Below are positions 1,703 to 59,952 of a stretch of 64,000 nt of DNA, one piece after another (positions within the stretch are counted from its first letter, which is position 1; each line of letters begins with the position of its first letter). The DNA is from Eledone cirrhosa (Eukaryota). The notes beneath the pieces were generated by a model. The model was not told the DNA's origin. It did no database searches and worked only from the letters and a program-made list of their open reading frames with translations. Location: assembly GCA_964016885.1 (NCBI GenBank), contig OZ024745.1, positions 113,336,001-113,400,000 on the forward strand, written 5' to 3'. A program made the position numbers and the translations under genes.

Positions 1703-2920
1703 CTTATATCTGGAGTCTAAAAGACGACCGCATCCAATATAGGTTACACTGGGAGATCCTAGCCGAGGCTAGATCGTATAACAGAAATAAAGGACCATGC
1801 GATCTTTGCGCCGCTGAAGCCCTGGAAATACTCTACGGCAATGCCCACATCTTAAGCAGAAAATCTGAGATATTTTCGGCTTGTAAACACAAATTGCATA
1901 AAACTTTCCTGTATTACAGCCCTACATTATACCCTAACGGATAGTACGAACAATACGCGAATAACTTCCGTCTTGATGTGGTAGCAAAGTATATTTTATG
2001 TTTATACCATTACTTATTTGTATAGGTATGTATACCTTACCGGTATGTTTTGTGAAGGTACGTATACTTTCTCGTACGTATATATGTACGTATTCTATTT
2101 GTTATAGGTGTATTTATTATATTATATATACTGGTATATGTGTATATGGTTATATGTATATGTGTATTTTGTGTTTGTGTATGTGTATGCGTGTTTGCAC
2201 GTATGTAAGGTGCGTATACGTGTACATTGTGTTTTGGTAGACGTACATTTGGTCAACATATGTGTATTTACCTGTAGGTATGTGTGTGCGTGCGCTATAT
2301 ACTTATTTATGTGTGTATATTTGATTACGTCTATATAATTATATGTATTATATATTTTTTATGTGTATTTGGTGTATACGTTCGTATGTTTGCTGGCACA
2401 TGTGTCGCGCGGGTCTATGTATGTGTGGGCGTGTTTATGTGTACATGCATGCATGGAGGGTGTTTTCGCGTATGCACGTGCATGTACGTATATTTAATTA
2501 TTATTAATTTTAATAACCTCTGTCTTTTTCGTTCTACTAATTTATTTACATTATTCTTAACTCTGAAGCCGAGAATCATTCGGTTTCCTAAATAGAATAT
2601 TAGTCTACGACTTCATTTATACCATAAACGTGGTTTTGTCTTTGTGGGTCTCATCGATCCACATAACGACGTATTATCTTCGCTTTTTACCAGGGAACGT
2701 CTTCACGAACTAAAGTATCGTCTTACTGTTTTCCTTCGGTTGCAACGTTTTTCTAATTATTTACTTCTGCGTTCACAGATTGATTTTTTTTAGTTTCAGA
2801 AGATCCCGTTAAGAGTGAAAGCAGCAATTCTTTGTTTAAACTTTAATCTGTTATATTAATAAATATTTATATATATCGAGCCCTCTCTGGATTTCAGTCT
2901 TCACATTTATTATTATTACT
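1703..2920 (+). mobile_element. 5'-truncated Naiad-type Penelope-like element (family A): GIY-YIG C-terminus plus ~1 kb 3' region
   Basis: Translates as AYIWSLKD..QYRLHWEILAEARSY..NKGPCDLCAAEALEILY..ILS...ACKHKL. Matches the copies at 17.3 kb and 63.2 kb and ends in (TA)n. Confidence 0.85.
2792..2842 (+). ncRNA. Family A hammerhead motif with CAGAAGA (U4A) core
   Basis: AGTTT-CAGAAGA-TCCCGTTAAGAGT-GAAA-GCA..TGT-TT-AAACT. Stem I is AGTTT/AAACT. Confidence 0.65.
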
Positions 2921-2967
2921 ATATATATATATATATAGTTATATAATAAACAACATAAGATAACAAT

Positions 2968-3029
2968 TTCATTTACCAGTGGTTTCCTGAAGGCAGATAT
3001 TTATATCTGTCTTCAGTCGTCAGTATGAA
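2968..3029 (-). ncRNA. Type I hammerhead ribozyme motif
   Basis: Minus strand: TTCATA-CTGACGA-CTGAAGACAGATAT/ATATCTGCCTTCAG-GAAA-CCACTGG-TA-AATGAA. Core intact, long stem II. Confidence 0.75.
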
Positions 3030-3475
3030 TAAATACCATGGTGTTTTTATTAAATATGGATTTGAAAACAAACTTACAATGTAAAATCATGATACCTAGA
3101 ATTAAGTTTATTTTCCCTTTGAGTTGATGGTCAGTCGTACTGTCCACGCTAGGTGAGAGGTAGTATTATGACCTGTAAAAACTAACACTCTCCCACCCCC
3201 TCTGGCTTTCGACTGACTACCACAGTCGAGATGGGTAGCAGTAAACTATGGTACGGGCCATTGTGTCACTGAGAGGGTGAATTGACTAAGCGAATTTCGT
3301 TGAAATCTGCGGTAGCTAATGGTCAACTTCCTTCGGACATGCGCACGCGCAGACCGGTGGGGGTGAATTGGTACTCACAGGGGAACGGGTGATAAACCCA
3401 AAAGCACGCATTTCATCCGTTCCCATGTCGATTCAATTTGGATTGCCTCAGAAACAATACCTTATTATGTAACAA

Positions 3476-3549
3476 GCTGTCTGATGATGTCACAACACTC
3501 GCACACAGAACAGTGTGACCAGTGTCGCCATTGAAATATATATCACAGC
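3476..3549 (+). ncRNA. Type I hammerhead ribozyme motif
   Basis: GCTGT-CTGATGA-long imperfect stem II (ACACT..CACAC/GTGTG..AGTGT)-GAAA-TATATA-TC-ACAGC. Stem I is perfect. Confidence 0.75.
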
Positions 3550-3670
3550 AGTATTATTAAAGGATATATATATATATATATATATATATATATATATATA
3601 TATATATATATATATATATATATATATATATATAATATATACATATACATATATATATATATATATATTA

Positions 3671-4329
3671 AAAATATGGGTGAGAAGAATACTGCTGGTT
3701 GCACATGGATAACATGTTATAAAATGAGTCCCTCATCAGTGATTTACCAAACGATCATGGGTATTTCATCGCATTATAAATCATATACCTCACGTTGGAG
3801 CGATAATAACTAAAATAAGTTATTAGGACAATAGAAACGCGTAAAGCGAGTGAGACAAGTAAACAACACAGGGGGAAGCTAACCGAAGATGGAAATAAAC
3901 ACAAGCAACATAGTTATTCTTTCAGCATAAGCTGTGTGAAAATATGCGCGAGTTAGAAACAGACCTTTCGCTAGTGAATTCGGTGTTAGAAAGAAGGAGA
4001 ACCGTTTTCACAGCGAACGCGAGGAAGAAAGAAGGGGAGAAACAGGGACTGAGTGAGTGGGAGTGCGAGGAAGAGGTCAGTGGAGAGAAAGTGTTAACTG
4101 ACATGGCAGAGGGGACGAAAGAAAGTAAGAGAAACAGAGAGAACGAGGGAGCAGTAAGAGAGAAAGAGAGAAACACAGAATTGCAGTTTGGGTAAATATA
4201 TGAAAAATATGGGTGAGAAGAATACTGCTGGTTGCACATGGATAACATGTTATAAAATGAGTCCCTCATCAGTGATTTACCAAACGATCATGGGTATTTC
4301 ATCGCTTTAAAAATCATATACCTCACGTT
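3671..4329 (-). mobile_element. Non-coding element with ~125-bp terminal direct repeats (pLTR/retrozyme-like partial tandem)
   Basis: 3671-3796 is repeated at 4203-4329, and each repeat has CTGATGAG on the minus strand. A second copy lies at 34935-35405. Confidence 0.6.
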
Positions 4330-58373: not shown

Positions 58374-58630
58374 GAGAAATATAAATAAATAAATAAATAT
58401 ATACATAAGCACAATAACAACAAACATATATAAATACACACTAGTAAACTAAGATAGAATACAATAACGGAAACACAGTCACCCAAACGCGAACACACAC
58501 CAAACACTATACACACACACAAACGCATGCGCAGAGAAGAAGACACAAATAAATAAATAAATAAATAAATAAATAAACAGATTAAATAAAGATGGTGTAG
58601 ATATACAATACAACAGGAGAAACATAATAG

Positions 58631-58674
58631 CACCACTGACGATGTTGCAGATGTGCAACGAAAGAACTTTGTTA
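58631..58674 (+). ncRNA. Hammerhead motif in the PLE B 3' repeat, stem I eroded
   Basis: CACCA-CTGACGA-T-GTTGCA(GATG)TGCAAC-GAAA-GAAC-TT-TGTTA. Confidence 0.65.
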
Positions 58675-59004
58675 GACTATATATATGTGTTTGTGTCTAT
58701 ATTATATCTGTATTTTTGACCGTTGGTCAGTCAATGGTAAACATTGAGGACCGGATGAATTAACTGATATAAAAGATACAGAAGTGAAAACCAACCAAAC
58801 AGTGAGTGTGTTCTGTTATTAATTCTGGCAATATTATTACAACAATATGCACCCCCCACCCAAATATAACAATATTTGTTTCGACACACGATTTCATATC
58901 AAAAACCTCTCAAAACAAATTCATCGCCGTTATATATATATATTTGTTATATATTGAATTTACATCTCGATAGCCTTAACATTGTCTTTTGAAATTTTAC
59001 AGAC

Positions 59005-59201
59005 ATCTTAATTATAATCCACGTCATATTTGTGGCATGTAGTCATGACCCTTTACGTTCAAATTCCGCCGAGATTTATTTTCCCTTGTTTCTTTTCGGG
59101 ATCGATAAAATAAAATATCAGTAATGTACACAGTTCGATTATTCAACTTTGTCCCTTCCCTTCAAAATGCTGGCCTTTTATCAAAAATAGAAACAATTAT
59201 T
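59005..59201 (+). mobile_element. SINE family A, diverged
   Basis: GTTCAAATTCCGCCGAG...TCGATAAAATAAAATATCAG...GCTGGCC. Confidence 0.7.
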
Positions 59202-59619
59202 ATAAACCTCGTCGCCGTTGTAGTTGTTGTTGTCATCGACGTCGTTGTCGTCATCATCATTATCATCACCATCAACGTATTTAGACTATATTATTAGCAC
59301 TATTTAATCTCCAGACACTTGGTGTTTGGGTTATCTTGTAATATTTTAAACAATGACGTCTATTAATTACTTTTCAGCTTTTCTTTCCCTGCTTTGAAGG
59401 TAAAGGAATCTAATATTTCTTTCGATCAGAATATGAAAAGCGACAGAATGTGGGAAAATCGAAAGAGAGCTCAGTTAACTTAAATGATTAATACGTTAAG
59501 TAGTGAAGTTAGTTGATGTAGTTTATATGGAAATGAAAAGAAAGGTTTCATTCATTTTAGAGAACAAAGAAAGACCAGGTCTCTCTTTATGATTTCAAAC
59601 GAATGAAAAATGTGTACTC

Positions 59620-59952
59620 CCGTAGAAATAAACGTATATATATATATATATATATATATATATATATATATATATATATATATATATATATATATATATA
59701 TATATAGTAATAATAATAAATTTGAAGACTAAAATCCAAAGAGGGCTCGATAAGGATAAATATATATCAAATATATAAGAACCGTAGAGCAAAAATTTAT
59801 TAAAATAACAGATTAAAGTTTAAGCAAAGAATCGCTGCTTTCACCCTTAACGGAATCTTCTGAAACTAATAAAGGACTTTGTTAGTTTCAGAAGATCCCG
59901 TTAAGGGTGAAAGCAGCGATTCTTTGCTTAAACTTTAATCTGTTATTTTAAT
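59620..59952. mobile_element. PLE family A terminus as a fold-back with two HHR copies (59817-59867 minus, 59884-59934 plus)
   Basis: About 75-bp arms at 59799-59952: AGTTT-CAGAAGA-TCCCGTTAAGGGT-GAAA-GCA..TGC-TT-AAACT. Confidence 0.85.

What the first reader, a model, noticed from the sequence alone, without database searches (positions are those of the whole stretch)
2792..59934. Naiad-family hammerhead has a CAGAAGA (U4A) core in all five copies
Seen: copies at 2792 (+), 15783 (-), 18550 (-), 59817 (-) and 59884 (+), from four separate loci, all read CAGAAGA rather than CUGAAGA. In the best copies stem I (AGTTT/AAACT), stem II (CCC/GGG) and stem III (AGCA/TGCT) still pair. Family H also shows CAGA (5635) and family C shows CCGAAGA. 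Inference: position 4 changed in the active master element rather than by decay, giving a variant or attenuated ribozyme that strict searches would miss.
Basis: partly seen in the sequence, partly recalled or inferred. Interest (0 to 1): 0.75.

Follow-up and report, generated by a model that had tools for sequence, protein, structure and literature searches.

The report
Retrotransposon hammerhead with fixed U4A core
These five motifs are pieces of one very abundant Penelope-type jumping gene whose hammerhead-ribozyme-shaped end has A in place of the normally fixed U in 99% of more than 15,000 copies; the element likely spreads with a crippled ribozyme (cutting untested), and the sequence is likely kept because the element's transcripts are predicted to start on it.

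Summary
Confirmed: all five window copies read CAGAAGA, as do 15,495 of 15,651 genomic matches and both subfamilies. A4 was therefore in the source elements and is not decay. Two first-reader claims fail. The host is a Hydra-clade Penelope-like element (C-terminal GIY-YIG, RWR, DKT, CxCx5C), not a Naiad. The 'family H CAGA' at 5635 is a stem II arm; that family's core keeps U4. Other core letters are canonical, and the U10.1·U11.1 mismatch and U17 are common in published Hydra hammerheads. About 1,100 copies start with an extra G at the first base of stem I, a cap signature (tallied by eye), so RNA was copied through an uncut motif. No junction peak marks the cut site, but a canonical control family shows none either. 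The motif, loops included, is unchanged between subfamilies, and so is the downstream tail, so the constraint need not be catalytic. Best reading: a crippled ribozyme kept as transcription start and protein handle (0.6); a slow, protein-assisted active variant stays open (0.25). Cutting is untested. The scan already reported this family four times on other DNA of this genome.

The parts
2792..2842 (+). Family-A hammerhead motif (A4 core, C3 at 2797), older subfamily; stem II has one mismatch
15783..15833 (-). Family-A hammerhead motif (C3 at 15828), older subfamily, decayed in stems I-III
18550..18600 (-). Family-A hammerhead motif (C3 at 18595), young subfamily, intact; distal stem I extends to about 18541-18616
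59817..59867 (-). Family-A hammerhead motif (C3 at 59862), left arm of a fold-back insertion, followed by the ~90-nt tail to about 59700
59884..59934 (+). Family-A hammerhead motif (C3 at 59889; predicted start of capped RNA at 59884; would-be cut between 59929 and 59930), right arm of the fold-back; the 5' arm of distal stem I is missing
1701..2945 (+). 3' fragment of the Hydra-clade element: end of the endonuclease region, 3' UTR, hammerhead, tail, then (TA)n
15777..17734 (.). Inverted-plus-forward fragments of an older copy (RT-thumb to endonuclease remains at 16665-17584 on +, 72-77% identical to young ORFs)
18517..19457 (-). 3' UTR plus hammerhead of a young copy
62696..64000 (+). Further copy (linker, GIY-YIG region, 3' UTR); its hammerhead lies just beyond the window (L071) and also has A4
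5630..5680 (+). Family H fragment: 3' arm of a long stem II, GAAA, stem III and stem I' of a different Hydra-clade hammerhead; the CAGA at 5635 is not a core
61316..61362 (+). Family C minimal hammerhead with C4 core
15046..15083 (+). Family D hammerhead, same stem II design as family A but with canonical U4

Best explanation
The five motifs are the hammerhead-shaped end of a 3.26-kb Hydra-clade Penelope-like retrotransposon in which core position 4 is A in 99% of copies; the ribozyme is likely crippled, and the sequence is likely kept because the predicted capped transcription start lies on its first base and the element's protein likely needs this region. Shown: the motif lies 934 nt after the ORF stop, and one unit repeats every 3,259 nt. 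Copies end at two fixed points, about 26-29 and 111-115 nt past the would-be cut. Many copies begin with an extra G exactly at the first base of stem I. Inferred: RNA polymerase II starts there from an internal promoter, and the RT starts copying in the tail behind the 3' motif and reads through one or both motifs uncut, so cleavage is not needed for spread. Also inferred: U4A could arise in one step by a flip of the 7-nt quasi-palindrome TTC-T-GAA to TTC-A-GAA during the fold-back joints that form next to the start site.
For: A4 is fixed. Architecture and two 3' ends. Cap signature: of 100 listed rows (2,063 hits) with a non-T letter before stem I, 79 are 5' junctions and 53 of those 79 carry an extra G (p about 1e-14 against composition; tallied by eye), about 1,100 copies. 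An independent listing gave a peak of 15 of 100 junctions at this base, 9 of 15 with G. Cut-site junctions are at background: 1 of 100 rows exactly at the site and about 1.7 per base around it, against about 1.5 per base elsewhere (by eye). A non-autonomous derivative was copied through both motifs into shared upstream DNA in 8 of the 16 loci examined that carry two motifs (L184, L186, L188, L190, L193, L196, L199, L200) and likewise in L207. [quoted passage not shown] The Poseidon PLE hammerhead is dispensable for insertion in vitro, and uncut RNA is the main template (PMC11167929, main text). Penelope has an internal promoter just downstream of its start (PMC2377424, passages). The hammerhead conformer is 2.8 kcal/mol above the minimum-energy fold, with proximal stem I at about 8%. 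Constraint extends over the loops and the tail, not only the catalytic letters: old versus young consensus differ at 19 of 150 upstream positions, 0 of 60 in the motif and 0 of 100 downstream. The rare U4 copies are enriched at 5' junctions: 6 of 9 versus 3 of 41 for other letters, or 5 of 8 independent loci, p 0.001.
Against: No activity or RNA data. Every other core letter, the A15.1-U16.1 pair and all stems are intact, which is what an active ribozyme under selection would look like. Reading through uncut motifs also happens in PLEs with working hammerheads, and the canonical control family shows no clear cut-site junction peak either (0 of 100 rows exactly, 6 one base off), so that test does not discriminate. 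Natural core variants such as U4C stay viable in vivo (PMC3088659), and the Poseidon motif cuts only with protein. The mutagenesis cited was on a type III construct without protein. Most young-subfamily copies were selected by a pattern on the motif (only 4 of 51 young and 7 of 18 old copies were unselected; the 36-copy unselected set agrees). The cap reading rests on DNA junctions only.
Confidence: 0.6

Rival explanations
1. A4 is a tolerated natural core variant: the motif still cuts, slowly or only with the element's protein, and cutting is what selection preserves.
For: All other core letters and stems are intact in 36 of 36 or nearly all unselected copies. No shared-polymorphism columns in the motif (0 of 56) against about 4 per 100 in the ORF and about 10 per 100 in the 3' UTR. 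Subfamily changes nearest the motif fall in the unpaired bulge of stem I (-12, -8). The two fixed changes of the mini-derivative lie in loops II and III. U10.1-U11.1 and U4C are known viable variants (PMC3088659). PLE hammerheads can be protein-assisted.
Against: CUGA-turn mutants are low-activity and not rescued in pairwise mutagenesis. Loops and tail are as unchanged as the core. About 1,100 copies run to the cap through an uncut site, with no cut-site peak. The fold is weak. No within-family covariation.
Confidence: 0.25
2. Neutral relic: the ribozyme died by one mutation in a successful master, and the apparent constraint is only recent sharing of the 3'-end/5'-end module between subfamilies by recombination at tandem junctions.
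For: Subfamily differences stop abruptly at position -8, next to the predicted start, and everything downstream is shared. Copies mutate stems freely after insertion. Mosaic 'mid' copies exist (11 of 80).
Against: The 5' arm of distal stem I, which lies upstream of the start, is also unchanged between subfamilies (the one difference in the -23..-13 bin is at -22, outside the helix) and pairs at about 0.99. The motif is more conserved than the ORF. A non-coding derivative that deleted nearly all else kept the motif.
Confidence: 0.12
3. A4 was selected at the DNA level because TTCAGA forms a new initiator, with A4 as the start base.
For: TTCAGA fits a BBCABW initiator consensus (recalled, not from a call). 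Five contigs have loose 5' ends at that base in one run.
Against: Junctions at A4 show no extra-G signature (2 of 11 rows), whereas those at the first base of stem I do.
Confidence: 0.03

Closest known systems
Hydra-clade Penelope-like elements and their type I hammerheads (Craig et al. 2021, PMC8557442; read: passages, section 11, supplement parts 1-2 and a search of the supplement)
   Same: C-terminal GIY-YIG, RW-basic motif, DKT, CxCx5C linker, CxxC and CxH, (TA)n targets, and a sense-strand hammerhead near the 3' end. U10.1-U11.1 and U at the cleavage position are frequent in File S2. The N-terminal half of Hydra-1_Obim is visibly homologous (compared by eye only).
   Different: Every Hydra row of File S2 has a ctga core (found with a descriptor that required it); here A4. 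Stem III starts G15.2-C16.2 (CUU triplet) where the Hydra rows have C15.2-G16.2. The 3' UTR is long (934 nt), the unit is 3.26 kb and the copy number is above 15,000.
Poseidon element of the green anole, PAc (Frangieh et al. 2024, PMC11167929; read: main text, parts 1-2 of 4)
   Same: Two fixed 3' ends (tail) downstream of the hammerhead; uncut RNA is the template; AT-rich targets.
   Different: PAc has a canonical core that cuts with protein and overlaps the start codon; here the core is A4, the motif overlaps the predicted transcription start, and the tail is about 90 nt.
Natural hammerhead core variants (Perreault et al. 2011, PMC3088659, section 8 and passages; Cervera and de la Pena 2014, PMC4209133, parts 1-2 of 4)
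   Same: U3-A8, U10.1-U11.1, A6C and viroid U4C are documented; PLE hammerheads have low activity in vitro.
   Different: No U4A in the passages read (0 hits for 'U4A' in PMC3088659). Luense et al. 2017 on PLE hammerhead variants could not be obtained, and figures and supplements of the other papers were not seen, so a prior U4A record is not excluded.
Naiad PLEs (PMC8557442)
   Same: PLE with pLTR, inverted structures and (TA)n bias.
   Different: Naiads have an N-terminal endonuclease, a DKA motif and no canonical hammerhead; this element has none of those features.

Membership tests
Naiad PLE | GIY-YIG endonuclease N-terminal to RT | tested here: not met
   YRDD (RT) precedes IVY...YIG in natural ORFs L052 and L053
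Naiad PLE | DKG motif modified to DKA | tested here: not met
   DKT at residue 115 (definition)
Hydra-clade PLE | Single ORF, RT followed by C-terminal GIY-YIG | tested here: met
   (read from two overlapping natural copies, each partial)
Hydra-clade PLE | RWK motif and DKT motif | tested here: met
   RLRWRA (R for K) and DKT
Hydra-clade PLE | CxCX5C linker, with CxxC and CxH in the endonuclease | tested here: met
   CNCRNRVDC, CDLC, CKH
Hydra-clade PLE | Insertion into (TA)n | tested here: met
   Both 3' ends run into (TA)n
Hydra-clade PLE | Placement in the Hydra clade in an RT tree with published sequences | not tested
   Only a within-genome endonuclease tree and a by-eye comparison with Hydra-1_Obim; Pfam gave no useful hit
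Hydra-clade PLE | Canonical hammerhead in the pLTR | tested here: not met
   Motif is present at the expected place but has A4
Type I hammerhead ribozyme | Three stems around the junction, open end in stem I | tested here: met
   21 of 21 designed pairs are standard in L053, including a 9-bp distal stem I; the fold is not the minimum-energy one
Type I hammerhead ribozyme | Core C3, G5, A6, G8, A9, G12, A13, A14, A15.1-U16.1, H17 | tested here: met
   Each is the majority letter in 33-36 of 36 unselected copies
Type I hammerhead ribozyme | U at position 4 | tested here: not met
   U in about 0.4% of 15,651 matches (37 of the 100 listed non-A rows, of 156)
Type I hammerhead ribozyme | Compensatory changes in the stems | tested here: inconclusive
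   No subfamily-level variation in stems or loops to test
Type I hammerhead ribozyme | Match to an Rfam hammerhead model | tested here: not met
   None among the 150 of 170 rows shown; the 20 lowest-scoring rows were not shown
Type I hammerhead ribozyme | Site-specific self-cleavage | not testable with these tools
   No RNA run listed; the genomic junction test does not discriminate

The most novel reading that the evidence does not exclude
A natural hammerhead with adenine in the 'invariant' U-turn position still cuts, because the retrotransposon's own protein or its distal stem I supplies what U4 normally does; a 15,000-copy element would then run on a ribozyme core that pairwise mutagenesis says cannot work, and strict genome searches would be missing a whole tier of active hammerheads.
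Probability: 0.2. Interest if true: 0.72.

Novelty: new variant of a known kind. Interest (0 to 1): 0.45.

Why it matters
Why Penelope-like elements carry hammerheads is an open question. Here one of the most abundant families in a genome has a fixed change in the catalytic turn, while related Hydra families in the same genome keep U4 (family D, 98 of 100 listed; family H mostly). That gives a natural comparison. If the A4 motif is dead, cleavage is dispensable for massive amplification and the motif is kept for another job, likely transcription start and protein binding. If it cuts, the U4 rule has a natural exception. The overlap of the predicted capped start with the first base of stem I, and a one-step quasi-palindrome route to U4A, are both testable. 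Interest is moderate: the element class and its hammerheads are known, and activity is untested.

Tried and rejected
(1) DNA search of the own genome with the 81-nt motif returned nothing because common words are skipped; patterns were used instead. (2) A second 'A4 family' (CAGATGA, 4,451 hits) is a false positive: it has no stem I and lies on the antisense side of a canonical CTGACGA family. (3) Family H CAGA as a core: rejected. (4) A U4 subfamily of family A: not seen in the 9 U4 loci fetched of about 58 estimated; they share no evident private alleles and mostly sit at junctions. (5) A deeply diverged A4 sister family: a loop-excluding pattern (242 hits) returned only a non-autonomous derivative and point mutants among the 100 rows listed, and tblastn in 864 kb of unselected DNA found relatives only at 72-96% or 50% and below. 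(6) Cut-site footprint: no peak in family A or in a canonical control family, so uninformative. (7) RNA: no RNA holder listed. Contigs of four runs show no alternative letter at position 4 at the 5% listing level, nor one run at 1%; runs of two other organism labels gave only 3 and 5 contigs, too few to use. (8) Thermodynamic z-scores are unremarkable (-0.22 and 0.80). (9) Pfam: no informative hit. (10) Literature searches for a natural U4A and for octopus hammerheads listed no paper reporting one; one search was dominated by unrelated sequence strings. Luense et al. 2017 was not held, so absence in print is not established.
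Full report
Observation. The window is 33.6% GC and rich in TA microsatellites; it lies in a 3.0-Gb genome (G000). Five motifs have C3 at 2797(+), 15828(-), 18595(-), 59862(-) and 59889(+), and all read CAGAAGA. The parse is stem I AGTTT/AAACT, core, U10.1·U11.1, stem II CCC/GGG with a 5-nt loop, GAAA, stem III AGCA/TGCT with a 9-nt loop, and U17. The would-be cut is between 59929 and 59930. Full copies add a 9-bp distal stem I after a 7-nt bulge. Two copies are perfect, one has a wobble, 2797 has a stem II mismatch and 15828 is decayed. 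A strict descriptor finds 3 copies in the window and 0 in each of 100 resamples.

Position 4 across the genome. A 34-letter pattern with position 4 free has 15,651 exact hits; only 156 are non-A (of the 100 listed, by eye, 38 G, 37 T, 25 C). A pattern anchored outside the core has 14,991 hits, and all 100 listed rows have A4. In loci not selected on hammerhead letters, 36 of 36 copies have A4, including 17 old-subfamily and 13 young-subfamily copies. A4 was therefore in the source elements through at least two subfamilies.

Host element. Natural ORFs upstream of the motif encode an RT followed by a GIY-YIG region, with RLRWRA, DKT, YRDD, CxCx5C, CxxC and CxH. These are the stated marks of the Hydra clade (PMC8557442 section 11). 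Naiads have an N-terminal endonuclease, DKA and no canonical hammerhead. The unit is 3,259 nt; the motif is 934 nt after the stop; copies end about 26-29 or 111-115 nt past the would-be cut and run into (TA)n. I did not build a tree with published sequences; Hydra-1_Obim was compared by eye.

What is and is not unusual. In File S2 of that paper U10.1·U11.1 and U at the cleavage position are common among Hydra hammerheads, and U10.1-U11.1 is a documented natural variant (PMC3088659). Family-specific are A4 and the G15.2-C16.2 pair. Other families in this genome mostly keep U4: in 864 kb, A4 hits with convincing stems were family A only. Family D has the same stem II design and U4 in 98 of 100 listed rows (7,363 hits) while position 7 and loop II vary; its ORF is Hydra-like at about 28-37% identity. 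Family C has C4. The CAGA at 5635 matches the 3' arm of that family's long stem II. U4A is thus most simply a derived change in family A (inference).

Constraint. Old and young majority sequences differ at 19 of 150 positions upstream (-174 to -25), at 2 of 7 in the stem I bulge, at 0 of 60 in the motif (p 0.002) and at 0 of 100 downstream. Shared-polymorphism columns run at about 10 per 100 in the 3' UTR, about 4 per 100 in the ORF and 0 of 56 in the motif. Most young copies in these sets were pulled by a pattern on the motif; the unselected set agrees. The loops and the tail are as unchanged as the core, so the signal is not specific to catalysis, and there is no covariation to test.

Where transcripts start. 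Among copies broken between -8 and +4 (2,582 hits), the commonest break in 100 listed rows is at the first base of stem I (15), 9 of them with an extra G; breaks at A4 show no such G (2 of 11) (by eye). A direct search gave 2,063 hits: of 100 rows, 21 are point changes and 79 are junctions, 53 with G, 18 with A and 8 with C. A non-templated G is the usual trace of reverse transcription across a cap (established knowledge, recalled); in some fold-back rows the G could instead come from the partner arm. So about 1,100 copies were likely copied to a capped start through an uncut motif. Penelope of Drosophila has an internal promoter just downstream of its start (PMC2377424), which offers a DNA-level reason for the constraint. 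The capped 5' form lacks the 5' arm of distal stem I, so only the 3' copy of the motif is complete.

Signs of cutting. Junctions at the would-be cut are at background (1 of 100 rows exactly), but a canonical family also lacks a clear peak, so this does not discriminate. A non-autonomous derivative with a 372-nt mini-unit (242 pattern hits) was copied through two motifs into shared upstream DNA in 9 of the 16 loci examined. No RNA run was listed. In pairwise mutagenesis of a type III hammerhead, all CUGA-region mutants other than the C3-G8 swap had low activity and no rescue (PMC9901934, passages; heat-map values not seen). The Poseidon hammerhead cuts only with protein and is not needed for insertion in vitro (PMC11167929). 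The hammerhead conformer is 2.8 kcal/mol above the predicted minimum.

Origin of the change (inference). TTC-T-GAA and TTC-A-GAA are reverse complements, and fold-back joints form right here. The rare U4 copies sit at 5' junctions in 6 of 9 loci against 3 of 41 for other letters (5 of 8 independent loci, p 0.001). The reverse flip could have produced U4A in one step in a tandem master.

Verdict. The feature is real: a new core variant of a known PLE hammerhead, in a Hydra-clade element. Most likely it is a crippled ribozyme retained for transcription start and protein binding (0.6); a slow or protein-assisted active variant has 0.25, a neutral relic 0.12, and a new initiator at A4 0.03. Searches for a natural U4A in print listed none, but Luense et al. 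2017 and several supplements were not available. The scan has reported the same family four times on other DNA of this genome; those notes are not independent support.

Noticed in passing
L181-L209 (e.g. L184, L186, L190): Non-autonomous family-A derivative: a 372-nt mini-unit with the ORF deleted, in partial tandems, behind a shared non-element 5' sequence; at most about 240 pattern hits; retrozyme-like, A4 kept, changes in loops II and III.
   Followed up: partly
L311-L330; window 5630-5680: Family H: Hydra-clade hammerhead with U3-A8 core and a very long, variable stem II; weakly supported as the nearest clade to family A.
   Followed up: partly
window 61316-61362; L085, L136, L058, L150: Family C minimal hammerheads with C4 in every copy whose core could be read: a second fixed position-4 variant in this genome.
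   Followed up: partly
L114, L123, L129: Tandem arrays of about 310-nt units, each with a canonical-core minimal hammerhead (non-LTR retrozyme-like).
   Followed up: no
L074 and L146, about 80 nt after an endonuclease ORF (42% identical to family A): CAGATGA followed by a 7-bp hairpin and a displaced GAAA in two copies; no good stem I; a possible hammerhead relic or chance.
   Followed up: partly
window 56267-58212 (+): Decayed RT followed by a GIY-YIG-like region with a CxxxCxxC linker, probably another PLE clade (label from memory, not tested).
   Followed up: no
window 4869(+), 6200(+), 18199(+), 29430(-), 44126(+), 60616(-): Further hammerhead-like cores with canonical U4 from other repeat families.
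   Followed up: no
window 157-404, 6059-6289, 8658-8833, 15376-15516, 44355-44648, 46608-46890: Several long, near-perfect inverted repeats (fold-back insertions); the one at 8658-8833 gives the spurious Rfam microRNA hits.
   Followed up: no
L151-L180: A family of at least 4,400 copies with a canonical hammerhead whose antisense flank mimics an A4 core (CAGATGA...GAAA); a trap for relaxed descriptor searches.
   Followed up: yes
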